Of a DNA stretch of 64,000 nucleotides, positions 42,215 to 50,658 are shown piece by piece. The translations under genes were made by a program, and so were the position numbers. The stretch is from a virus. Lineage: Duplodnaviria; Caudoviricetes. The DNA lies in the IMG/VR virus record IMGVR_UViG_3300031867_000013, positions 1 to 64,000 of that record. One strand, written 5' to 3'. The notes beneath the pieces are model-generated. The model ran no database searches. It had not been told where the DNA came from and saw only the letters and a list, made by a program, of their open reading frames with translations. Positions within the stretch are counted from its first letter, which is position 1. Every line of letters begins with the position of its first letter.

Positions 42215-43033
42215 TTAATCATCTTCTTTTAATGTTTCATTTAAGTCTGCATTTATATCTTCATTTCCCCACGAACTCTTAGAACTTTCACCTAATGCAG
42301 AAAGTATATTACTATCAATATTTTCTTCAACTTTCTTTTGTGCTTTCCACTCAAAGAAATTCCTTATATTTTCCCACGCTTTCATCTTATCGGGTAATTG
42401 AATAGTGATACCATCTTTTCCTTGTTTAATTGAAACAATTATACTTGTATCTACTGTATCGCTATCTACTAAATGCATACGATTTACTTTCTTAAATTTT
42501 TGTTCTCCTGTATCTGGGTCAAATCTTAATGTACCATCTACATTATATTCTGGTATTTCTTCTTCACTAAATTTGATATAATCACCTATATCTGCATTTG
42601 CTATTTTTAATTGTGTTTCTATATATTTTGATGGGTCTATTTCATATCCTATTGTTAATATTTTCTTTAATTTCTTTATAGCATTTTGTATATTTGATTT
42701 ATTTAATAATCTATAACCATATAATGATGCTAACTTCTTATCCCCACCAAAAGATTTTAAGTATGCTTGCGTAGCATTTGTAGATTCTAAATAGTATAGT
42801 ACAAAATCTTGTTGTTTTGGTGTAAGACCTAATCCAACTAATTCATCTACTATTTTATCATTTACTTGATCTTTTCTTATATTTTCTGACCTTCTAAAAT
42901 CATCGTATATATCTTCTACGTCCACATCTTCTTTTCGTGGTCTGCCACGTTTAGGCTTTATTTCTATATTCTTTTCTTCTAACTTTTCATCTATATTTTC
43001 TTTTAAATTATCTGTTAGATATGTTTCTGCCAT
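42215..43033 (-). CDS. terS: Terminase small subunit
   Basis: LTPKQQDFVLYY...NATQAY HTH; ADIGDY; DKMKA. Confidence 0.9.
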   Translation of the reverse strand: MAETYLTDNLKENIDEKLEEKNIEIKPKRGRPRKEDVDVEDIYDDFRRSENIRKDQVNDKIVDELVGLGLTPKQQDFVLYYLESTNATQAYLKSFGGDKKLASLYGYRLLNKSNIQNAIKKLKKILTIGYEIDPSKYIETQLKIANADIGDYIKFSEEEIPEYNVDGTLRFDPDTGEQKFKKVNRMHLVDSDTVDTSIIVSIKQGKDGITIQLPDKMKAWENIRNFFEWKAQKKVEENIDSNILSALGESSKSSWGNEDINADLNETLKEDD

Positions 43034-43140
43034 TTATTAGACACTCCTTTCTTATATAAAAATATTATAATTTACTTAAAAATTATCTTATATTATATCA
43101 TATTTTTACACATTTGTCAAGCCTTAAAAATAGACATACT

Positions 43141-43167
43141 AAAAGCCCCCAACGGACGGGGGCTTTT
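43141..43167. terminator. Bidirectional intrinsic terminator closing the RNA cluster
   Basis: AAAAGCCCCC...GGGGGCTTTT. Confidence 0.75.
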
Positions 43168-43236
43168 AGCTGTAAAGGAGATGTTAAAAATGAAGGATAG
43201 CTTTAAGGCAATTACCTTATCGCCACCATATTATAT

Positions 43237-43311
43237 TGGCGGGAAATAAGATAATCGAAATCTTGTCTTTAGATTGACAATCTAATATTCTAACCACTGA
43301 ACTAATTTCCC
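43237..43311 (-). tRNA. tRNA-Asp(GTC)
   Basis: Cloverleaf; anticodon arm TTAGA-TTGTCAA-TCTAA; CCA end. Confidence 0.85.
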
Positions 43312-43322
43312 GTTATATACAT

Positions 43323-43394
43323 TGGATGCGGCGGCTGGTAACGCTCCAGCTTAATCTAGCCCATGAAACTAGACGGGTTCTTAACCTCACCGCG
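43323..43394 (-). tRNA. Atypical tRNA(CAT), Met/fMet-like
   Basis: CTAGT-TTCATGG-GCTAG arm; C1:A72 mismatch; non-canonical T loop AGCGTTA; CCA end. Confidence 0.65.
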
Positions 43395-43399
43395 ATTAG

Positions 43400-43645
43400 T
43401 GGGCGTATTATAAATCATAATTGTAAACTTCTTACGCCTAAAGTTTTATTTTGAATAAGAGCGCGTCTTACCGATATTGCCTTGTTCCTATTATCGCGCT
43501 GATTAATAGTCATGGAGAGAACCACTTTCGCAATTCTCCCAAGTATATATCCGCAAATATATACCCCAATTAATATTTTAAGACGTATAACACACAAACT
43601 TCTGTCTTTCTGCCTTTCTGAATATATTTAGGCTTTATACACCCA
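43400..43645 (-). ncRNA. Unassigned ~245-nt structured RNA
   Basis: End-to-end stem TGGGTGTAT/ATACGCCCA plus several internal hairpins; lies between tRNAs; no convincing ORF. Confidence 0.55.
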
Positions 43646-43740
43646 TACTAAGCAAAGTTTTACTGATTATGCTAATATAATTGCCTAACTACTATATAGC
43701 ATTTCGTGTGAAATATTTATTTTAAGTTAAGATGTTTCTT

Positions 43741-43815
43741 TGGTAGGGACGATGAGAATCGAACTCATGTTGATGGTTTATAAGACCATTATACTCACCA
43801 TTGTATTACGTCCCA
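43741..43815 (-). tRNA. tRNA-Ile(TAT)
   Basis: ATGGT-CTTATAA-ACCAT arm; T loop TTCGATT; CCA end. Confidence 0.85.
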
Positions 43816-43849
43816 ATATTATATACATATTAAATGTTTTATACATTAC

Positions 43850-43912
43850 TACAAGATGCTTTTACATTCATCTTCACCCAAGAATTTGTAAAATAATTGC
43901 TGTTAGCATCTT
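43850..43912 (-). ncRNA. ACAGCAA-stem RNA element 1
   Basis: AAGATGC-TA-ACAGCAA...GCATCTT-GTA with inner TTTTACA/TGTAAAA stem. Confidence 0.7.
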
Positions 43913-44062
43913 TATAATTTAGGGGGTAGCTAAATAAAATTACTATAAATATTTTTAAATTGGGTTCTATAGTATAATAAATCTACAATTTTAAAACAAG
44001 GTATTCACGCCAATTTTTATAGTTATTATACTATAGAACTCTATTAGATGCCTAAACTTATC

Positions 44063-44167
44063 TACAAGACACATTATAAAAACTGTCTAAAAATACTTTT
44101 GGACTTCTTAGATTTAATTTTTCTGTTATCAAATAAATTATATCAATTCATTTGCTGTTCGTGTCTT
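44063..44167 (-). ncRNA. ACAGCAA-stem RNA element 2
   Basis: AAGACAC-GA-ACAGCAA...GTGTCTT-GTA; own SigA promoter directly upstream. Confidence 0.7.
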
Positions 44168-44224
44168 TCATTGTCTGTATTATATCATATAATTTTTAAT
44201 TTGTCAACCATTTTTTTATTTTTT

Positions 44225-44309
44225 TGGTGTCGAAGGAGGGAATCGAACCCTCATGGTAAAGACCGCAGAGGCTTAAACTCTGTGCGTATGCCAATTTCGC
44301 CACTCCGAC
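44225..44309 (-). tRNA. tRNA-Leu(TAA)
   Basis: CAGAG-TTTAAGC-CTCTG arm; long variable arm; CCA end. Confidence 0.9.
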
Positions 44310-44627
44310 ATATCTTATTTACATTTGTATTATACCACACGAATTTTAATTTGTCAATACTTTTTTCTTTTTCTATATGCGCCCCATCCACGCACATAAT
44401 ACACAGCCCCATTAAACTTTGCTATGCTCCCTTTGAGGTTATCCGTGTGGCTACGGTTTAGGATATTTATAATATAGCACACAATTCTAATTTTGTCAAC
44501 TACTTTTTAAATATTTTTCAAAAAGAAAAGCGGGAAGAACCACCAACCCGCTTTCTTTCTTGATTTAGACAAGTTATGTCTGCAATCAACACTCTATTTT
44601 GTATTATACCACAATTTTTATAATTTG

Positions 44628-46412
44628 TCAAATAAATAATGCGTCAATTTGTGCTTTTGTTGCAATAATTGAACCGCCTATTATATCCCATTTTTCTTTT
44701 TCTGTATCTGTAAAAGTTGATTCTGATGTATGTGCTAATTTACATTTATATATAAATTTATCATGCACAACTACTGTATCTAATTGATAATATGTACTTG
44801 CTTGCCAATTCTTTAAGTCACTAAATACTAAATCCCAATTTCCTATATCTGTTTCAAAACTAATATTAGAACTTGTGTGTGAATTATTGCACCTATATAA
44901 ACTATTTGCATAATTTACTACTTGATTGGTTTTATATTCTGTATTTATAGCCCAATCTTCTAATACTAATACAGATTCAGAACCTAATTCATTCCATTTA
45001 GATATATCAAAATTTACCCCGCTTGTATGTGCTGTTTTACACTCATATAAGCAATCATCATATATTACTATTTGATATACTTCATATTGAGTATTTGCCG
45101 CCCAATGTGCCATTTTATTTCCATCATATATTGTAGTTACGTGCTTTGTCCCATCGGGGTCTGTAAATGTTATTTTATGTTGACCTACTACTGTTTCATC
45201 TATAGTAGTTGTTGGGGATTTACCATCTACACCATCATTTATTGTTACAGTTTGTGTTCCATTCTTATCTGTAATACTTAATGTAGAATATTTTGCTCCT
45301 GCGGATTTTGTTAAATTTACAGTAGGACTATAACCATCTGCACCATTAGATATAACTGTTGTAGAAGTTCCTGCCGCCGAAACAATAGTAACTGTATGTG
45401 TACCATTTGGATTATCTACTACTGTTATTGAAGGGCTTACTCCATTTTCTCCTTTATCACCTTTATCACCTTTATCGCCCTTCATACCAATTATCTTACC
45501 GCAATTTTGCCATTCATATTGTTGTGTACTTGTATTTTCTAACCACATATATAAATATGGCACTTCTTCATCTAATGGGTCTCCAACTAAATAAGCATCA
45601 CCTACAGTACCAGTTGGGTGTGCGGCTTCTAAATCTTCTAATGTTTCATATTGCGCTCTTATTGTAAAGGATTTACCATCTTCACCCTTATCGCCTTTAT
45701 CACCTTTTGCGCCATCTCTTATTTTTGCACTTGTTGTGCCATTAACATCTTGAATTGTTATTGTAGCTGTATCTCCTGTTTTAGATACACTTGCAGAAGG
45801 GCTTACACCGCTTGCTCCATTTGTTCCGTTCATTACATTAAAATCTTTTGTTCCCGATTTATCTGTAATTGAAACTTTATGACCATTAGTTATATTAGTT
45901 ATTGCTACTGTAGGACTATAACCATCTGAGCCTTTTGCTCCATTTGTACCATTATATATATTTGCTGTAGTTGTTCCATTTATATCTACTAATGTTATAG
46001 TTGCTCCACTAGCTGTTTGTGTAATTTTTGCTGTAGGAACTGCTTGAACATCTACGTTTAATTTATCGCCTTGCATTTTAAGACCGCTACCTACTTTTGC
46101 GCCACCTTTTATGTTTGCTGACATTGTTGGAAGTGTATATGGCGTACCGCCGCCACCGCCGCCACCACCCCCTTTCCCGTTTACCTTAAAAGGGACTGTT
46201 GTGAATACTGCGTCTTTATTACCCGCACTTCTTACATATACTGTACCATCAAATGCTACTATCTGATTCTCAATTAATTTTATACCTGTATTATCTTCAT
46301 TAGTTGCAGATATTTCAATAGGTACTTTACTTGTGTTTTGAATAGACCCTGTAGTTTCTTCTGGTGAAACCCAAGTTCCTGCTTTTACATTATACTTTGC
46401 CATCAATATCAT
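44628..46412 (-). CDS. Collagen-like fibre protein with C-terminal CBM5/12-like repeats
   Basis: GDKGDKG repeats, GxSPT repeats, three W..Y..C..H.S repeats. Confidence 0.75.
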   Translation of the reverse strand: MILMAKYNVKAGTWVSPEETTGSIQNTSKVPIEISATNEDNTGIKLIENQIVAFDGTVYVRSAGNKDAVFTTVPFKVNGKGGGGGGGGGTPYTLPTMSANIKGGAKVGSGLKMQGDKLNVDVQAVPTAKITQTASGATITLVDINGTTTANIYNGTNGAKGSDGYSPTVAITNITNGHKVSITDKSGTKDFNVMNGTNGASGVSPSASVSKTGDTATITIQDVNGTTSAKIRDGAKGDKGDKGEDGKSFTIRAQYETLEDLEAAHPTGTVGDAYLVGDPLDEEVPYLYMWLENTSTQQYEWQNCGKIIGMKGDKGDKGDKGENGVSPSITVVDNPNGTHTVTIVSAAGTSTTVISNGADGYSPTVNLTKSAGAKYSTLSITDKNGTQTVTINDGVDGKSPTTTIDETVVGQHKITFTDPDGTKHVTTIYDGNKMAHWAANTQYEVYQIVIYDDCLYECKTAHTSGVNFDISKWNELGSESVLVLEDWAINTEYKTNQVVNYANSLYRCNNSHTSSNISFETDIGNWDLVFSDLKNWQASTYYQLDTVVVHDKFIYKCKLAHTSESTFTDTEKEKWDIIGGSIIATKAQIDALFI

Positions 46413-46532
46413 TCCTTTCTTTTATATATGCACAAATAGGACATACATATAGTATGCCCTAATATTATTCTTATTAAATTGCTATGTTATATTTCAATAC
46501 TCCATAATTGACTATTACAATTATAGTATCTC

Positions 46533-46632
46533 GGCACAAAATGTTTCTATCATATAACATAACATAAGTGGTGGTAATCAACCCAACTTTCAGTATCATC
46601 TTTAATAAAGATATGATTGCTGTAAGTGCCTT
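46533..46632 (-). ncRNA. ACAGCAA-stem RNA element 3 (downstream of Ro-like gene; shorter 3' arm)
   Basis: AAGGCAC-TT-ACAGCAA...GTGCC. Confidence 0.55.
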
Positions 46633-46687
46633 ATATATCAATGAAAAGATAGACATATATTTCTATATGCCTATCCTCATCTACATA

Positions 46688-48214
46688 TTATCCAAAAACT
46701 TTGTCTATTACTGCATATCGAGGTACATTAAGCTGTTCTACAAGAGCCTTATATGGGTCTAATTGTGAACTCATTACCATACTCATAAGGTTCTTACTAA
46801 ACCCGCTAAGAAGAACAACTCCCATTTCATTCTCTGTCAGCGGAATCGTACCTGTACGACTATTTACATTCCAAAATACTAACTTTGGAAGTTTATAACC
46901 TTTTGCCGCAAACCTATTACGTATTGTTTCAAACAATGCTTCATTTACTGTTGGTGTTCTTTCTCCCCAAAAAGAATTACCATTAGCCACTCCGTCAAAT
47001 TCACAATCCGTGATGATAAGCACTGTATTAGGCATTTCGTCCTGCGACATATGATTCTTTACTGCTGTATCAAGAATCAAATCAAATGTTGCTTCGATAT
47101 TTGTATTAGAGCAATCATTATATTTATGCATAATATTAAGATTACCAAATAAGGTATCACTATTTACAGTTACCATTTGTGGCTTACTGCTAAATGTAAT
47201 AAACTTATTCTTAAATTCTCCACTATTATTTTGAGCGCAATATAATGAAATTGCACTTGCTACATCTAATGCAGAAACATTACTATTACCAATAGTAACT
47301 GTCATAGAACCACTACCATCACGTACAACAAGTGTATTTTTGAAACCTTCTACCTTGTCTTGTGCGTTCCATAATGCTTCTAGTGTTTCATCGACACCAT
47401 TAAACCGACCATAGTTAAATGCACCATACTTATGCACAATATCATGTAAAAACATAGCTTGTGCATTAATCTTTGTTTCACCATTTTTAAGTGATTCAAG
47501 ATATTCTATACGACGCTTTTCATCGTGTTTCATAAAAGCAAAACCATAATTAAGATTTGCCTTTGATGGAACAGCACTATATTCAATATCGTTCCACTCA
47601 TTTGCAGACATTTTACGTTCTACAATATCAATATGCTTACGTAACTTGCTAAGAACTTTACGATATTCCTTTGAACTAAATTCAAACCATTTCTTAATGA
47701 TATGACCGCGCTTAACTGTTTCTGCACTTGACGCATTAACAGATGGCATCCACTTAGCCAAAAGTGAAATAGGTTTACCTTCTTTATAGTTCTTCATATC
47801 GTCAATAAATTGTCCGATTACACGACTACGAATTGCAAGTTGTACTTTCTTGCTCTTTGTATTAAAATAAATATCAAGAATATCATCCCAACGACCATAT
47901 TCTGCAATATCCACTTCATTAATTAGCTTTACTGCAATATCTTCGTGTGCCTTTGCAAGATAAACCATAAATTCTCTAAATGATTTACGTTCACCTACAC
48001 CACCACGAACATCACGCAAAAATAGAAGCCATTTTAAAGTAAGCACTTTATCTTCATTAAGTGCTTCTTCAAATAATGCAGTATCTACTTCTGTACGGAA
48101 AGAAGGAATTGCAAAATTAAGGTCTACAATCTTATGACCTTCTGTAGCAAAACCTACTGCACCATTTTCTGTTAGCTTCTTCTCATTCTTCTCCATTGCT
48201 TTGATAAAACTCAT
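46688..48214 (-). CDS. DUF2828-type Ro60/TROVE-like protein with C-terminal vWA domain
   Basis: TENGA, LRDVRGGVGER, EYGRWDD, LLAKWMPS, VPSKA; MIDAS DGSGSM; ITDCEFD; FWNV. Confidence 0.85.
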   Translation of the reverse strand: MSFIKAMEKNEKKLTENGAVGFATEGHKIVDLNFAIPSFRTEVDTALFEEALNEDKVLTLKWLLFLRDVRGGVGERKSFREFMVYLAKAHEDIAVKLINEVDIAEYGRWDDILDIYFNTKSKKVQLAIRSRVIGQFIDDMKNYKEGKPISLLAKWMPSVNASSAETVKRGHIIKKWFEFSSKEYRKVLSKLRKHIDIVERKMSANEWNDIEYSAVPSKANLNYGFAFMKHDEKRRIEYLESLKNGETKINAQAMFLHDIVHKYGAFNYGRFNGVDETLEALWNAQDKVEGFKNTLVVRDGSGSMTVTIGNSNVSALDVASAISLYCAQNNSGEFKNKFITFSSKPQMVTVNSDTLFGNLNIMHKYNDCSNTNIEATFDLILDTAVKNHMSQDEMPNTVLIITDCEFDGVANGNSFWGERTPTVNEALFETIRNRFAAKGYKLPKLVFWNVNSRTGTIPLTENEMGVVLLSGFSKNLMSMVMSSQLDPYKALVEQLNVPRYAVIDKVFG

Positions 48215-48227
48215 TTTTAATCATCCT

Positions 48228-48319
48228 TTCAAGTTGCCTTTTATTTTTTAACCCTATAAGGGTACGATTAACGCGATGTAATCCAAATTAAATAAAAACT
48301 ATTTTGCTGTATGCAACTT
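48228..48319 (-). ncRNA. ACAGCAA-stem RNA element 4 in 5' UTR of Ro-like gene
   Basis: AAGTTGC-AT-ACAGCAA...GCAACTT-GAA directly followed by SD AAGGATGA and ATG. Confidence 0.7.
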
Positions 48320-48329
48320 TATATTTTAT

Positions 48330-48358
48330 ATTATATCATATTTTTTATATTTTGTCAA
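48330..48358 (-). promoter_or_regulatory. SigA/sigma70 promoter of Ro-like gene
   Basis: TTGACA-N17-TATAAT with extended TG. Confidence 0.8.
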
Positions 48359-48377
48359 TATAAATTTTTAATATTTT

Positions 48378-48451
48378 TGGAGCGATTAAGGAGATTTGAA
48401 CTCCTACCGACTACTTGGAAGGAAGTCATGCTACCATTACACTATAACCAC
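48378..48451 (-). tRNA. tRNA-Gly(TCC)
   Basis: Loop CTTCCAA; T arm AGGAG-TTCAAAT-CTCCT; U73; CCA end. Confidence 0.85.
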
Positions 48452-48460
48452 ATATAAATT

Positions 48461-48562
48461 TACAAGCCGCCACAAGACGTCGGGTCAGATACAGGATTCT
48501 AACCTGTCTTAATACACATCTGTAAATCCGACAATTATCTTCTTTATTGCTGTTAGTGACTT
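48461..48562 (-). ncRNA. ACAGCAA-stem RNA element 5 with T-arm mimic
   Basis: AAGTCAC-TA-ACAGCAA...GCGGCTT-GTA (one mismatch); internal ACAGG-TTAGAAT-CCTGT. Confidence 0.65.
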
Positions 48563-48605
48563 TATACTGCGAAAGGAGGACTCTCACATTGAAAATACTA
48601 TTTTA

Positions 48606-48727
48606 TACAAGACACATCTCTTTTTAATGCGACCGCACACCGAACAGCATACAACTGTGTTGGGAGTTTAACCCAATCCTTATTTTTTGCAGAAATAATT
48701 AAGAAAAATAATTGCTGTTTGTGTCTT
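48606..48727 (-). ncRNA. ACAGCAA-stem RNA element 6 with Cys-like anticodon arm and T arm
   Basis: AAGACAC-AA-ACAGCAA...GTGTCTT-GTA; internal TTATTT-CTGCAAA-AAATAA and TTGGG-TTAAACT-CCCAA. Confidence 0.7.
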
Positions 48728-48748
48728 TTTTAAATTATTTACATATTT

Positions 48749-48824
48749 TGGTGACGAATCGGGGAATCGAACCCACGCTCTAGGGATTGAAAGCCCCTCG
48801 TCCTAACCGCTAGACTAATTCGTC
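48749..48824 (-). tRNA. tRNA-Glu(TTC)
   Basis: AGGGG-CTTTCAA-TCCCT arm; CCA end. Confidence 0.9.
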
Positions 48825-48830
48825 ATATTA

Positions 48831-48903
48831 TACAAGATGCTAAATGATAAGTAAAATAAAATATGCGCTTTATATACTTGAAAATAATTGCTGTTCGCAT
48901 CTT
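48831..48903 (-). ncRNA. ACAGCAA-stem RNA element 7
   Basis: AAGATGC-GA-ACAGCAA...GCATCTT-GTA; promoter 48911-48939 places the start site at its 5' end. Confidence 0.7.
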
Positions 48904-48948
48904 TTTCTGTATTATAACATATAAAATTTAATTTGTCAATACTTTTTT

Positions 48949-49164
48949 TTAATTTTTTCTTGGTAATCCTAATCTTTTTGCCAAACTATTTGCAAATACA
49001 AGAATATCTAAATTAAATTCATTTGCAATATTACCAATTAAAATAAATACTTGCAAAATAAGTTGAATTGGAACAAAAATTATAAACAATAAACAAAACT
49101 GTAAAAATTGTGTTATTGTCATTTCATAAATATCATATACTATTTTCATCTTTTTGTTCACCAT
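48949..49164 (-). CDS. Small membrane protein (paralogue of 49133..49357)
   Basis: YDI..MTI.QFL.F.L repeated in both; one hydrophobic helix. Confidence 0.55.
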   Translation of the reverse strand: MVNKKMKIVYDIYEMTITQFLQFCLLFIIFVPIQLILQVFILIGNIANEFNLDILVFANSLAKRLGLPRKN

Positions 49165-49357
49165 CTTCTTTTACAGGAAAATTCCATTTTTCTGCAAGTT
49201 CAAAGACATAATTCTTGACAATTTCATCTAATTCTCCCATCTTTGCCCCAACAAAAACAAAAACAGAAAGAAATAGATGAATAGGTACTCCTACAATACT
49301 AAGAAGTAGAAATTCTAAAAATTGTACTATTGTCATTTTCTTTATATCGTATTTCAT
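49133..49357 (-). CDS. Small membrane protein
   Basis: RBS GGTGGTG; hydrophobic segment. Confidence 0.6.
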   Translation of the reverse strand: MKYDIKKMTIVQFLEFLLLSIVGVPIHLFLSVFVFVGAKMGELDEIVKNYVFELAEKWNFPVKEDGEQKDENSI

Positions 49358-49393
49358 GTATTTTCACCACCTATAATGTTTTATATATATTAT

Positions 49394-49468
49394 TGGTGGG
49401 CTTATCAGAAGTTGAATCTGAACTAGAAATTTAGAAGATTTCTGTGCTGTCCGTTACACTATAAGCCA
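49394..49468 (-). tRNA. tRNA-Arg(TCT)
   Basis: GAAAT-CTTCTAA-ATTTC arm; CCA end; U1:C72 mismatch. Confidence 0.8.
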
Positions 49469-49478
49469 ATTATATTTC

Positions 49479-49794
49479 TGGTGGACTAGACGGAGGCGAA
49501 TCCGTGTCCGAAATTACTACATTTCAAAGAACTATCACAATAGCTATATTAACTGATAGCAACAGTAGTAGAAAAGGAGATTTTATTATGAAAAACTTTG
49601 TTGTATTTATTTAATATTTTTCTGCATTGACCTACAACATAGTATTACAGAAAAAGAAACTGATAGCAACTTATGCCGCTACAGCTTCATATTCAAAAGA
49701 AAAGTTGTCAGTTATTATACTGTTTAGACTTTAACGCTGTACATTCCGTGTGAACTTTGAAATTTCATAACTCCGTCGAAACATAAACTAGCCC
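49479..49794 (-). ncRNA. ssrA: tmRNA; tag (A)DNFSFEYEAVAA*
   Basis: 5' GGGCTAG..TTCGAC; acceptor GGGCTAG/CTAGTCC-ACCA with G3:U70; resume context ATAACT-GAC; tag ends in AA. Confidence 0.9.
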
Positions 49795-49807
49795 ATATTA
49801 AATTTTA

Positions 49808-49881
49808 TGGCAGGAGTTGAAGGAATCGAACCCCCATAGGTAGTTCTGGAGACTACCGTATTACCATTATACGAAACTCCC
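49808..49881 (-). tRNA. tRNA-Trp(CCA)
   Basis: GTAGT-CTCCAGA-ACTAC arm; G73; CCA end. Confidence 0.9.
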
Positions 49882-49887
49882 ATTTAT

Positions 49888-50129
49888 GCGCCTTTATAGA
49901 CCCCTCCTGTCTAATGCCGCCACATAGCTTGTGATAGACCGACCCATTAAAAGAAACATAAATGTTTCTCACCTACCCGACCAAGATATATATCTTGAAG
50001 CCCTATCACTCCAATATTGTGAAAATGTATTTAGGTGCTTACCCCACACCACAGGACAAAATCAAAACTGTTTGCGCGACAACCGACAAACCCAAACAAA
50101 TATCCACATGATAGTTGTTTTCGCGCACC
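49888..50129 (-). ncRNA. Unassigned ~240-nt structured RNA
   Basis: GC-rich island between two tRNAs with multiple stems (TGCGCGA/TCGCGCA, GTGATAG/CTATCAC, CAAGAT/ATCTTG, AGAAACAT/ATGTTTCT). Confidence 0.55.
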
Positions 50130-50158
50130 TTTATATAGAAGATTGGTCTTTTAATTTT

Positions 50159-50235
50159 TGGTGGGACTAATAGGATTCTAACTTATATCTTGCGAATTAA
50201 AAGTTCGCTGTACTTAACAATTATACTATAGTCCC
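50159..50235 (-). tRNA. tRNA-Lys(TTT)
   Basis: GCGAA-CTTTTAA-TTCGC arm; variant T loop TTAGAAT; CCA end. Confidence 0.8.
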
Positions 50236-50240
50236 ATCTG

Positions 50241-50313
50241 TGCGGAAATTATGGAATTTAACCATAACCTTATATCCCATGACATATATGCTAAACATTA
50301 CACCAATTCCCGC
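50241..50313 (-). pseudogene. Degenerate tRNA-like sequence (anticodon undetermined, Pro/His-like)
   Basis: GCGGGAAT/ATTTCCGC acceptor; D- and T-like arms; 6-nt CATGGG loop; no CCA. Confidence 0.5.
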
Positions 50314-50319
50314 ATATCA

Positions 50320-50386
50320 TACAAGGCACGTTTGCTTGGATAGATTAAAAGTCTATTACATTAAAAATAATTGCTGTATGTGCCTT
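50320..50386 (-). ncRNA. ACAGCAA-stem RNA element 8 with Lys anticodon arm
   Basis: AAGGCAC-AT-ACAGCAA...GTGCCTT-GTA; internal ATAGA-CTTTTAA-TCTAT. Confidence 0.7.
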
Positions 50387-50437
50387 TAGTCAAAAGAAAG
50401 GAGATGTTGAATGTCAATCTTTTTCATTGACAAGCAT

Positions 50438-50466
50438 ATTATATCACAAAATTTTACGTTTGTCAA
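50438..50466 (-). promoter_or_regulatory. SigA promoter heading the RNA cluster
   Basis: TTGACA-N17-TATAAT with TG. Confidence 0.8.
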
Positions 50467-50475
50467 TAGGAAAAA

Positions 50476-50658
50476 TTAATTCTGTTTAAACATTTTTTCA
50501 ATTTCCTCTGAACTTGCCAAATATGTTATACATTCTCCACATTTTTGATTATATTCTCTATAAAATTTTTTAATTTCTTTCTTTTTACGCTCTCTTGCAC
50601 GTTTACTATAAAACATAGAACTTGTATTTACTCCTGCACATTTACCTGTATATTTCAT
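50476..50658 (-). CDS. Small basic hypothetical protein
   Basis: RBS AGGAG; 60 aa. Confidence 0.5.
   Translation of the reverse strand: MKYTGKCAGVNTSSMFYSKRARERKKKEIKKFYREYNQKCGECITYLASSEEIEKMFKQN

What the first reader, a model, noticed from the sequence alone, without database searches (positions are those of the whole stretch)
48461..50386. Cargo of the ACAGCAA RNAs includes tRNA parts: possible anticodon-nuclease decoys
Seen: element 8 carries a 5-bp stem with the exact tRNA-Lys(UUU) loop (ATAGA-CTTTTAA-TCTAT, 50340-50356). Element 6 carries a Cys-type arm (TTATTT-CTGCAAA-AAATAA, 48680-48698) followed at tRNA-like spacing by a T-arm mimic (TTGGG-TTAAACT-CCCAA). Element 5 carries a T arm (ACAGG-TTAGAAT-CCTGT, 48491-48507) with the same loop as the phage tRNA-Lys. 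None has an acceptor CCA. Known: bacterial YrlA Y RNAs are tRNA mimics, and PrrC-type defence nucleases cut the tRNA-Lys(UUU) anticodon loop. Inference: protein-stabilised tRNA mimics could soak up host tRNases or tRNA-modifying enzymes. Elements 1, 2 and 7 show only weak anticodon-like loops.
Basis: partly seen in the sequence, partly recalled or inferred. Interest (0 to 1): 0.78.

Follow-up and report, generated by a model that had tools for sequence, protein, structure and literature searches.

The report
tRNA look-alike parts on phage handle RNAs
Small RNAs beside a rumen phage's Ro60-shaped protein gene carry selected copies of tRNA parts, including an exact lysine-tRNA anticodon arm, so they are real tRNA mimics on a shared "handle"; whether they bait tRNA-cutting defence enzymes is untested.

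Summary
Observation confirmed. These RNAs share one handle: a covarying 7-bp stem, a 2-nt linker, ACAGCAA, and a G after the 3' strand.

In 83 non-redundant elements from related phages, tRNA-type hairpins far exceed chance and are strand-specific. CU-NNN-AA loops occur in 12 elements against 0.24 expected. T loops occur in 14 against 0.48.

The Lys(UUU) arm of element 8 recurs in distant relatives with covarying stems and an unchanged loop, and it is identical to real tRNA-Lys arms. The "Cys" identity of element 6 is not conserved. Element 5 carries an acceptor/T-arm minihelix.

Relatives also carry permuted YrlA-like domains, and 88 tRNA-shaped genes have the handle in place of the anticodon loop. 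The neighbouring DUF2828 protein folds like Ro60.

Interpretation partly supported: tRNA mimicry on a Y-RNA-like particle is well supported, while decoy action against anticodon nucleases is plausible but untested.

This scan has found the same system many times on other DNA. I found no description of the handle in Rfam or in the papers searched. Its stem-plus-ACAGCAA design matches the Class I RNAs of Dictyostelium.

The parts
50438..50466 (-). Perfect sigma-70-type promoter (TTGACA, 17 nt, TG-TATAAT) upstream of element 8
   Evidence: 12 of 12 matches
50322..50386 (-). Element 8. Handle 5' strand AAGGCAC at 50386-50380, ACAGCAA at 50377-50371, cargo, handle 3' strand GTGCCTT at 50329-50323, then G at 50322
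   Evidence: handle covariation
50340..50356 (-). Anticodon-arm mimic ATAGA-CTTTTAA-TCTAT, Lys(UUU)
   Evidence: Present in the minimum-energy and centroid folds. Conserved with covarying stems in relatives. All 17 nt identical to real tRNA-Lys arms.
50241..50313 (-). Non-decoding cloverleaf between element 8 and tRNA-Lys: 7-bp acceptor stem, D arm, 5-bp stem with a 6-nt loop, and T arm TATGG-TTAAATT-CCATA
   Evidence: ARAGORN finds it only at an 80% threshold. No Rfam tRNA hit. A compensatory T-A to C-G change in L002.
50159..50235 (-). Genuine phage tRNA-Lys(UUU), anticodon arm GCGAA-CTTTTAA-TTCGC
48608..48727 (-). Element 6: handle AAGACAC/GTGTCTT plus G, and ACAGCAA at 48718-48712
48680..48698 (-). 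Anticodon-arm-like hairpin TTATTT-CTGCAAA-AAATAA; ambiguous
   Evidence: Kept in L002, but the loop there is ATGCCAA. The minimum-energy fold uses a different pairing.
48660..48676 (-). T-arm mimic TTGGG-TTAAACT-CCCAA
   Evidence: Present in the minimum-energy and centroid folds. The loop is TTCAACT in L002.
48463..48562 (-). Element 5: handle AAGTCAC/GCGGCTT (one A-C mismatch; fully paired in L002) plus G; followed by tRNA-Gly
48484..48532 (-). Acceptor/T-arm minihelix inside element 5: GTCGGAT, an 18-nt connector, ACAGG-TTAGAAT-CCTGT, then ATCTGAC
   Evidence: L002 has GCTGAAT/ATTTAGC and GTAAG-TTTGAAT-CTTAC. Three acceptor pairs and the T stem changed on both sides while keeping pairing. 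The minimum-energy fold differs.
48833..48903 (-). Element 7: handle plus a plain hairpin cargo with no tRNA part. It starts at the transcription start of a perfect promoter (48939-48911) and is followed by tRNA-Glu
   Evidence: The orthologous element in L002 carries a YrlA-like permuted tRNA domain.
48231..48319 (-). Element 4 in the 5' leader of the DUF2828 gene
46688..48214 (-). DUF2828/DUF7788 protein with a Ro60 (TROVE plus vWA) fold; the presumed partner of the handle
   Evidence: Pfam and PHROG 850. Foldseek against Ro60 structures: E 1e-8 to 8e-6, TM about 0.55.
46531..46632 (-). Element 3, with a weaker 5-bp handle
44066..44167 (-). Element 2
43853..43912 (-). Element 1

Best explanation
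These are partner RNAs of a phage Ro60-like particle, and their variable part acts as a tRNA-shaped bait.

Shown:
- A constant handle (a 7-bp stem with distal AAG/CUU, a G after the 3' strand, a 2-nt linker, then single-stranded ACAGCAA) lies next to the gene for a Ro60-fold DUF2828 protein.
- The handle is joined to interchangeable cargo. The cargo can be a lone anticodon arm, an anticodon arm plus T arm, an acceptor/T-arm minihelix, a permuted YrlA-like tRNA domain, or a whole tRNA body with the handle in place of the anticodon loop.
- The tRNA parts are under selection.

Inferred:
- The ring protein docks on the handle.
- The cargo engages proteins that recognise tRNA. This holds them on the particle or competes with real tRNA, in the way a Y RNA tethers Ro60 to PNPase.
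- For element 8 the engaged protein would read the Lys(UUU) anticodon loop. The leading candidates are a host anticodon-loop nuclease or an anticodon-loop modification enzyme.
- The elements are made from strong early promoters and are released from tRNA operons by tRNA processing.
For: - All eight handles in the 118-kb genome lie within 6.5 kb around the DUF2828 gene.
- The motif is on the gene's strand in 85 of 92 related loci and almost never on the other strand.
- It is also present beside DUF2828 in cultured Enterococcus and Bacillus phages whose protein is about 36% identical.
- The protein has the Ro60 fold.
- Both the handle stem and the anticodon-arm stem covary.
- tRNA-type loops are enriched and strand-specific.
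- The YrlA model hits L002:7288-7396 (E 2e-4) and L007:7172-7283 (E 0.047). The tRNA model hits the inside of elements in L042, L063 and L068.
- 88 unique tRNA-shaped genes in 56 loci carry the handle in place of the anticodon loop; 77 of them as a capped hairpin, mostly with a 4-nt loop, in the order stem, G, loop, stem, 2 nt, ACAGCAA. This is a circular permutation of the same module.
- The Lys arm is identical to real tRNA-Lys arms and is not a copy of the phage's own tRNA-Lys.
- Cargo differs at orthologous positions between phages whose protein is 91% identical.
- Perfect promoters lie upstream.
- Precedents: YrlA mimics tRNA (PMC4201824); the authors of PMC7790460 suggest that YrlA may competitively inhibit an anticodon nuclease; a phage Ro60 binds Y-like RNAs and host PNPase (PMC12135203); a Ro60-like phage protein next to tRNA genes counters a defence system (bioRxiv 10.1101/2024.10.10.617714).
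Against: - There is no direct evidence that DUF2828 binds the handle, or that any tRNA-reading protein binds the cargo.
- More than half of the cargos show no recognisable tRNA part.
- Metatranscriptome contigs gave only short partial matches to the elements.
- The clusters used for the statistics are related by descent, so the counts measure conservation and not independent origins.
Confidence: 0.45

Rival explanations
1. The anticodon-arm RNAs are sponges or competitive inhibitors specifically for host anticodon nucleases (PrrC, RloC or PARIS type for Lys), and so protect tRNA during infection.
For: - The Lys(UUU) loop is the most frequent displayed loop, with at least three well-formed stem variants plus two partial ones.
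- By contrast, tRNA-Lys makes up only about 3% of the tRNA genes in these loci.
- The anticodon is swapped on the same stem among relatives: UUU, GCU and GUU on ATAGA/TCTAT.
- Cargo turns over quickly.
- PrrC and PARIS target tRNA-Lys (PMC2610378, PMC11455837).
- The same idea was voiced for YrlA (PMC7790460).
Against: - It is untested.
- It does not explain T-arm-only cargo, minihelix cargo, or the 88 tRNA bodies that lack an anticodon loop.
- Other displayed anticodons, such as Ser UGA, have no matching nuclease that I know of.
- The host and its defence systems are unknown.
Confidence: 0.22
2. A housekeeping adaptor like bacterial Rsr with YrlA. The particle serves quality control or decay of the phage's own abundant tRNAs and structured RNAs, tethering a host exonuclease, and has no role in defence.
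For: - The protein has the Ro60 fold.
- YrlA-like permuted domains occur in relatives.
- The system is always embedded in large phage tRNA clusters.
- A RYPER-like (Ro60, Y RNA, PNPase) complex has been shown for a phage Ro60 (PMC12135203).
Against: - Bare anticodon arms with swapped anticodons and fast cargo turnover are not expected for a housekeeping adaptor.
- The YrlA motif GNCGAAN0-1G is absent.
Confidence: 0.18
3. The tRNA-like parts are only processing and stability signals (RNase P, RNase Z, CCA addition, modification) that cut the handle RNAs out of polycistronic tRNA transcripts.
For: - Elements 5, 7 and 8 run into tRNAs.
- Handle-bearing tRNA-shaped genes have full acceptor stems, and 12 have CCA at the 3' end.
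- M. smegmatis YrlA is cut by RNase P and receives CCA (PMC4201824).
Against: - Lone anticodon arms are not recognised by RNase P or RNase Z, yet they are the best-conserved cargo.
- Only 13 of 126 elements are followed by a tRNA within 40 nt.
Confidence: 0.08
4. The hairpins are chance matches, or decaying fragments of tRNA genes left by recombination in a tRNA cluster.
For: The region is AT-rich, and a degenerate cloverleaf lies next door.
Against: Enrichment, strand specificity, covarying stems with unchanged loops, and arms that differ from the neighbouring phage tRNA genes.
Confidence: 0.04

Closest known systems
Bacterial and phage Y RNAs of the YrlA type with Ro60/Rsr (Chen et al. 2014, PMC4201824; Rfam RF02553)
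   Same: - Small RNAs encoded beside a Ro60-fold protein.
- A stem module for the protein plus a tRNA-like effector domain.
- Some relatives' elements have the same permuted order (T arm, acceptor hairpin, D arm) and hit the YrlA model below threshold.
   Different: - The protein is DUF2828, not Pfam TROVE.
- The handle is a 7-bp stem plus ACAGCAA, not GNCGAAN0-1G.
- Many copies occur per genome.
- The cargo includes bare anticodon arms, which YrlA lacks.
- The window's own elements give no YrlA hit.
Class I non-coding RNAs of dictyostelid amoebae (PMC7919456; search pattern GTTGRCCTTACAGCAA ... GTCAACTG in PMC5054030)
   Same: - A short stem joins the 5' and 3' ends.
- A conserved unpaired motif ending in ACAGCAA lies directly after the 5' strand.
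- The remainder is variable.
- Length is about 60 nt, as for element 8.
   Different: - They are eukaryotic, with their own promoter element.
- The first four letters of the 11-nt motif are not conserved here.
- No tRNA mimicry and no Ro60-like partner are mentioned in the passages I read.
- The known binder is an RRM protein.
Thermus phage phiLo Ro60 with Yrl1 and Yrl2 (PMC12135203; PDB 9KOP, 9L5Y)
   Same: A phage-encoded Ro60-fold protein with adjacent Y-like RNAs. It is the top structural match of the DUF2828 model.
   Different: Those RNAs carry a CGAA motif, and the passages I read mention no tRNA mimicry. The proposed role there is hijacking host PNPase.
Bas63 gp130 (PhageMaP preprint, bioRxiv 10.1101/2024.10.10.617714)
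   Same: A Ro60-like phage protein directly upstream of tRNA genes. It counters a defence system, and the authors suspect that some annotated tRNAs are Y RNAs.
   Different: No RNA partner or motif was defined. I did not test whether gp130 is homologous to this protein.
Phage tRNAs that evade anticodon nucleases (T5 tRNA-Lys against PARIS, summarised in PMC11455837; van den Berg et al. 2023, cited there)
   Same: A phage RNA answer to attack on tRNA-Lys. This phage also carries its own tRNA-Lys, 87 nt downstream of element 8.
   Different: Those are working replacement tRNAs. The RNAs here cannot decode.

Membership tests
YrlA Y RNA (RF02553) | Scores at or above the Rfam gathering score (69 bits) | tested here: not met
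   No hit at E up to 5 in window 43000-50600. The best relatives score 36.7 and 28.7 bits.
YrlA Y RNA (RF02553) | Conserved GNCGAAN0-1G (CGAA) motif in the Ro-binding module | tested here: not met
   No CGAA in elements 5, 6 or 8, read from the sequences. The conserved motif is ACAGCAA.
YrlA Y RNA (RF02553) | Encoded next to a Ro60 orthologue | tested here: inconclusive
   The neighbour has the Ro60 fold, but it is Pfam DUF2828/DUF7788, not TROVE. A profile search of PDB sequences found no Ro60.
YrlA Y RNA (RF02553) | tRNA-like domain with a T arm, an acceptor-like hairpin and a D arm in permuted order | tested here: inconclusive
   Met in relatives L002:7267-7391 and L007:7148-7265. Not met in the window's own elements, which carry single arms or a minihelix.
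tRNA (RF00005) | Cloverleaf that scores as tRNA and has a 7-nt anticodon loop | tested here: not met
   Elements 5, 6 and 8 give no hit. The cloverleaf at 50241-50313 is found only at a relaxed threshold and has a 6-nt loop.
Dictyostelid Class I RNA | A terminal stem plus an 11-nt motif CCUUACAGCAA after the 5' strand | tested here: inconclusive
   The stem and the last 7 letters are met. The first 4 letters are not conserved (linker counts). The lineage-specific promoter element does not apply.
Anticodon-nuclease decoy (no described RNA family) | Binds or inhibits an anticodon nuclease | not testable with these tools
   Only sequence mimicry of the Lys(UUU) arm is shown.

The most novel reading that the evidence does not exclude
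Handle RNAs that display bare anticodon arms would be the first RNA-based inhibitors of tRNA-cutting defence enzymes. A Ro60-like ring would present an uncleavable or sacrificial copy of the Lys(UUU) arm (or Asn, Ser, Tyr and others) and trap the nuclease. Phages would retarget the system simply by swapping three letters.
Probability: 0.22. Interest if true: 0.85.

Novelty: new variant of a known kind. Interest (0 to 1): 0.6.

Why it matters
Ro60 and Y RNAs have been known for decades, but the purpose of the tRNA-like domain of bacterial Y RNAs is still open. This phage family makes the question testable.
- The same protein handle is joined to every kind of tRNA part, including exact anticodon arms whose three anticodon letters change between relatives.
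- The system is present in cultured Enterococcus and Bacillus phages.
- If the arms bait tRNA-reading enzymes, this would add an RNA-based layer to the contest over tRNAs between phages and bacteria.
- It may also shed light on the orphan Class I RNAs of social amoebae, which share the stem-plus-ACAGCAA design.

Tried and rejected
- My first genome pattern used the wrong spacing (7 N instead of 6) and found nothing. A script corrected this.
- blastn against INPHARED found no close phage, only tRNA matches.
- A single-protein scan of IMG/VR gave one locus. The profile scan was needed.
- A profile search of PDB sequences did not find Ro60. The fold search did.
- Rfam gave no family for the window's elements or for the 277-nt RNA.
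- The loose loop pattern YU-NNN-RN fails as a strand control, because the reverse complement of CU-NNN-AA also fits it. I therefore used the strict pattern.
- Four rumen metatranscriptome runs, laid as contigs, covered the elements only with short partial pieces from relatives. This gives no verdict on their expression or their ends.
- The minimum-energy folds of elements 5 and 6 differ from the comparative model. For element 5 I preferred the model kept by compensatory changes in L002.
- I considered and rejected two readings of the handle. It is not a promoter element, because its distance to the -10 box varies and the stem covaries. It is not a known self-cleaving ribozyme, because there are no Rfam hits.
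- No RtcB gene is present in the genome.
- Most matches of the 17-nt Lys arm in bacterial genomes (69 of 81) lie in neither a tRNA nor an ACAGCAA element, and are probably chance.
Full report
WHAT IS THERE

The window is the first 64 kb of a complete 118-kb, 31% G+C phage genome from IMG/VR. Related DNA occurs in bovine gut samples.

Between 43.8 and 50.5 kb the minus strand carries:
- eight tRNA genes and a tmRNA;
- seven perfect sigma-70-type promoters;
- a 508-aa DUF2828/DUF7788 gene, assigned to PHROG 850 "RNA-binding protein";
- eight intergenic elements that contain ACAGCAA.

No such element occurs anywhere else in the genome.

Each element has the same frame: a 7-bp stem (5' AAG-NNNN, 3' NNNN-CTT), a G after the 3' strand, a 2-nt linker after the 5' strand, then ACAGCAA. 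A variable cargo of 37 to about 100 nt sits between ACAGCAA and the 3' strand.

CHECK OF THE OBSERVATION

The element 8 hairpin and the T-type hairpins of elements 5 and 6 appear in the minimum-energy folds. The anticodon-like arm of element 6 competes with another pairing. None is followed by CCA.

IS IT MORE THAN CHANCE?

The window alone cannot tell, so I collected relatives through the DUF2828 protein:
- 11 loci by exact protein look-up;
- 80 IMG/VR loci by profile;
- 1 locus by a single-protein scan of IMG/VR.

Co-occurrence with the gene:
- The motif [AT]AG-N6-ACAGCA lies on the gene's strand in 85 of the 92 loci and almost never on the other strand.
- A script extracted 175 unique elements; 132 have a perfect 7-bp stem, the G and the exact ACAGCAA core, and these fall into 83 non-redundant cargo clusters.

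Enrichment in the 83 clusters:
- Hairpins of at least 5 bp with a CU-NNN-AA loop occur in 12 cargos, against 0.24 in dinucleotide shuffles.
- T-loop hairpins occur in 14, against 0.48.

Both signals are strand-specific: 9 against 0, and 10 against 1, on the reverse complement.

In an alignment of 21 elements that carry a lone anticodon-type arm:
- the handle is 100% paired, and 4 of its 7 pairs covary;
- the arm is 90.5% paired, and all 5 of its pairs covary;
- C32, U33, A37 and A38 of the loop stay fixed;
- no shuffle out of 500 reaches the observed covariation.

The clusters are related by descent. These numbers therefore show selection on the structures, not independent inventions.

THE THREE ELEMENTS OF THE FINDING

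Element 8 carries ATAGA-CTTTTAA-TCTAT.
- The same loop recurs on covarying stems (ATAGA, ATCAA, TAAGA) in phages whose DUF2828 protein is only 45-60% identical.
- The same stem carries CTGCTAA or CTGTTAA in others.
- The 17-mer is identical to the anticodon arm of genuine tRNA-Lys(UUU) genes in Streptococcus, Clostridia, Bacteroidaceae and other genomes.
- It differs from the phage's own tRNA-Lys arm, GCGAA-CTTTTAA-TTCGC.

Element 5 is more than a T arm.
- GTCGGAT (48532-48526) pairs with ATCTGAC (48490-48484), which lies directly after the T arm. This gives an acceptor/T-arm minihelix.
- In the 91%-identical relative L002, three acceptor pairs and the T stem have changed on both sides and still pair.

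Element 6 keeps its T-type hairpin; in L002 the loop moves toward the T-loop consensus, TTAAACT to TTCAACT. Its anticodon-like loop changes from CTGCAAA to ATGCCAA, so a Cys identity is not conserved.

WHAT THE RELATIVES ADD

The cargo is modular.
- The orthologue of element 7 in L002 carries a T arm, an acceptor hairpin and a D arm in the permuted order of YrlA. It hits Rfam YrlA at 36.7 bits, E 2e-4. The window's element 7 has only a plain hairpin.
- Other elements enclose an anticodon arm plus a T arm, or a whole tRNA-like body that the Rfam tRNA model recognises.
- 88 unique tRNA-shaped genes in 56 loci carry ACAGCAA in place of the anticodon loop.
- In 77 of these it is preceded by a hairpin of at least 6 of 7 bp, mostly with a 4-nt loop. 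The examples read NNNNCTT-G-NNN-AAGNNNN-NN-ACAGCAA.

That last arrangement is the same handle, circularly permuted, with the G retained. The handle is therefore a self-contained module, and tRNA parts are a recurrent cargo.

THE PARTNER PROTEIN

An AlphaFold model of the DUF2828 protein (pLDDT 80) matches Ro60 structures over its full length:
- Thermus phage phiLo Ro60;
- Xenopus and human Ro60;
- Deinococcus Rsr.

Foldseek gives E 1e-8 to 8e-6 and TM about 0.55. Sequence profiles do not reach Ro60.

Homologues are present in 710 INPHARED phages. In Enterococcus phage VRE9_3 and Bacillus phage Thrax2 the gene again sits in a tRNA cluster, with the same stem-plus-ACAGCAA elements around it and in its 5' leader.

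HOW IT MOST LIKELY WORKS

Shown: a conserved, covarying handle linked to a Ro60-fold protein gene, and selected tRNA mimicry in the cargo.

Inferred: the ring protein binds the handle, and the cargo engages proteins that recognise tRNA. These are either held on the particle or out-competed from real tRNA.

The literature offers close parallels:
- YrlA RNAs mimic tRNA and are substrates for tRNA enzymes (PMC4201824).
- The authors of PMC7790460 suggest that YrlA may competitively inhibit an anticodon nuclease.
- A phage Ro60 binds Y-like RNAs together with host PNPase (PMC12135203).
- A Ro60-like phage protein next to tRNA genes counters a defence system (bioRxiv 10.1101/2024.10.10.617714).
- PrrC and PARIS AriB cut tRNA-Lys (PMC2610378, PMC11455837).

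Points in favour of a bait for anticodon-reading proteins:
- the bias of displayed arms toward Lys(UUU), although tRNA-Lys is only about 3% of the tRNA genes in these loci;
- the swapping of anticodons on one stem;
- the fast turnover of cargo.

Points against a pure nuclease sponge as the explanation for the whole family:
- the many cargos without an anticodon loop;
- the absence of any functional test.

The rival readings are a housekeeping RNA quality-control adaptor, processing signals, and debris. They are weighed in the Rival explanations section.

COMPARISON WITH WHAT IS KNOWN

The system works like Ro60 with YrlA but fails the membership tests for YrlA:
- no gathering-score hit;
- no CGAA motif;
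- the protein is not Pfam TROVE.

The handle has the same design, and the same heptamer, as the Class I RNAs of Dictyostelium: a terminal stem followed by CCUUACAGCAA.

I found no description of the phage handle in Rfam or in the papers searched. The scan itself has reported the same system many times on other genomes, with similar verdicts. This report is an independent confirmation on this genome, not a first sighting.

OTHER THINGS SEEN

- Between element 8 and tRNA-Lys lies a 73-nt cloverleaf with a 6-nt loop that cannot decode.
- Between tRNA-Lys and tRNA-Trp lies a conserved 277-nt structured RNA with no Rfam match. Part of it (about 49900-50111) is covered by contigs with 0 or 1 mismatch in three of the four rumen metatranscriptome studies laid.
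- The phage also encodes an intein-interrupted RNA-ligase-family protein.

Noticed in passing
window 49882-50158 (-): An unannotated 277-nt structured RNA between tRNA-Lys and tRNA-Trp. It is 98% identical in L002 and 69% in L005, where one hairpin is extended. It has long invariant blocks and no Rfam match. RNA-library contigs with 0 or 1 mismatch from three of the four rumen studies laid cover about 49900-50111.
   Followed up: partly
window 50241-50313 (-): A cloverleaf RNA with a 7-bp acceptor stem, a D arm and a T arm but a 6-nt anticodon loop. ARAGORN and Rfam miss it at normal thresholds. It is conserved in L002 with a compensatory change, and it lies between element 8 and tRNA-Lys.
   Followed up: partly
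window 49479-49794 (-): A phage-encoded tmRNA that scores just above the Rfam threshold (51 bits). Its counterpart in L002 scores 107 bits.
   Followed up: no
window 43092-50466 (-): Seven perfect 12-of-12 TTGACA-17-TG-TATAAT promoters within 7.4 kb, four of them directly upstream of handle elements.
   Followed up: partly
window 49807-49886: One contig from an RNA library joins the tmRNA to the 277-nt RNA and skips exactly the tRNA-Trp gene. This most likely reflects a related phage that lacks that tRNA.
   Followed up: no
L215:1192-3240 (-), genome 98114-100162, outside the window: A 682-aa ORF with an RNA_ligase (PF09414) domain, interrupted by an intein that carries a LAGLIDADG endonuclease. 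No RtcB gene in the genome.
   Followed up: partly
window 48949-49164 and 49133-49357 (-): Two small overlapping ORFs (71 and 74 aa) with similar hydrophobic N-termini and no family match, lying between tRNA-Arg and the promoter of element 7.
   Followed up: no
L077:7603-8451, L002:12659-12984, L017:8199-8506, L018:8436-8747: tRNA genes in relatives that are interrupted by insertions of 230-760 nt, one of which appears from its sequence to encode an HNH-type endonuclease. These look like group I introns, not handles.
   Followed up: no
L124:6657 and L140:4531 (rumen Lachnospiraceae genome bins): Handle RNAs with the same Lys arm lie on contigs binned with rumen Lachnospiraceae. This is a possible hint at the host, or a binning artefact.
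   Followed up: no
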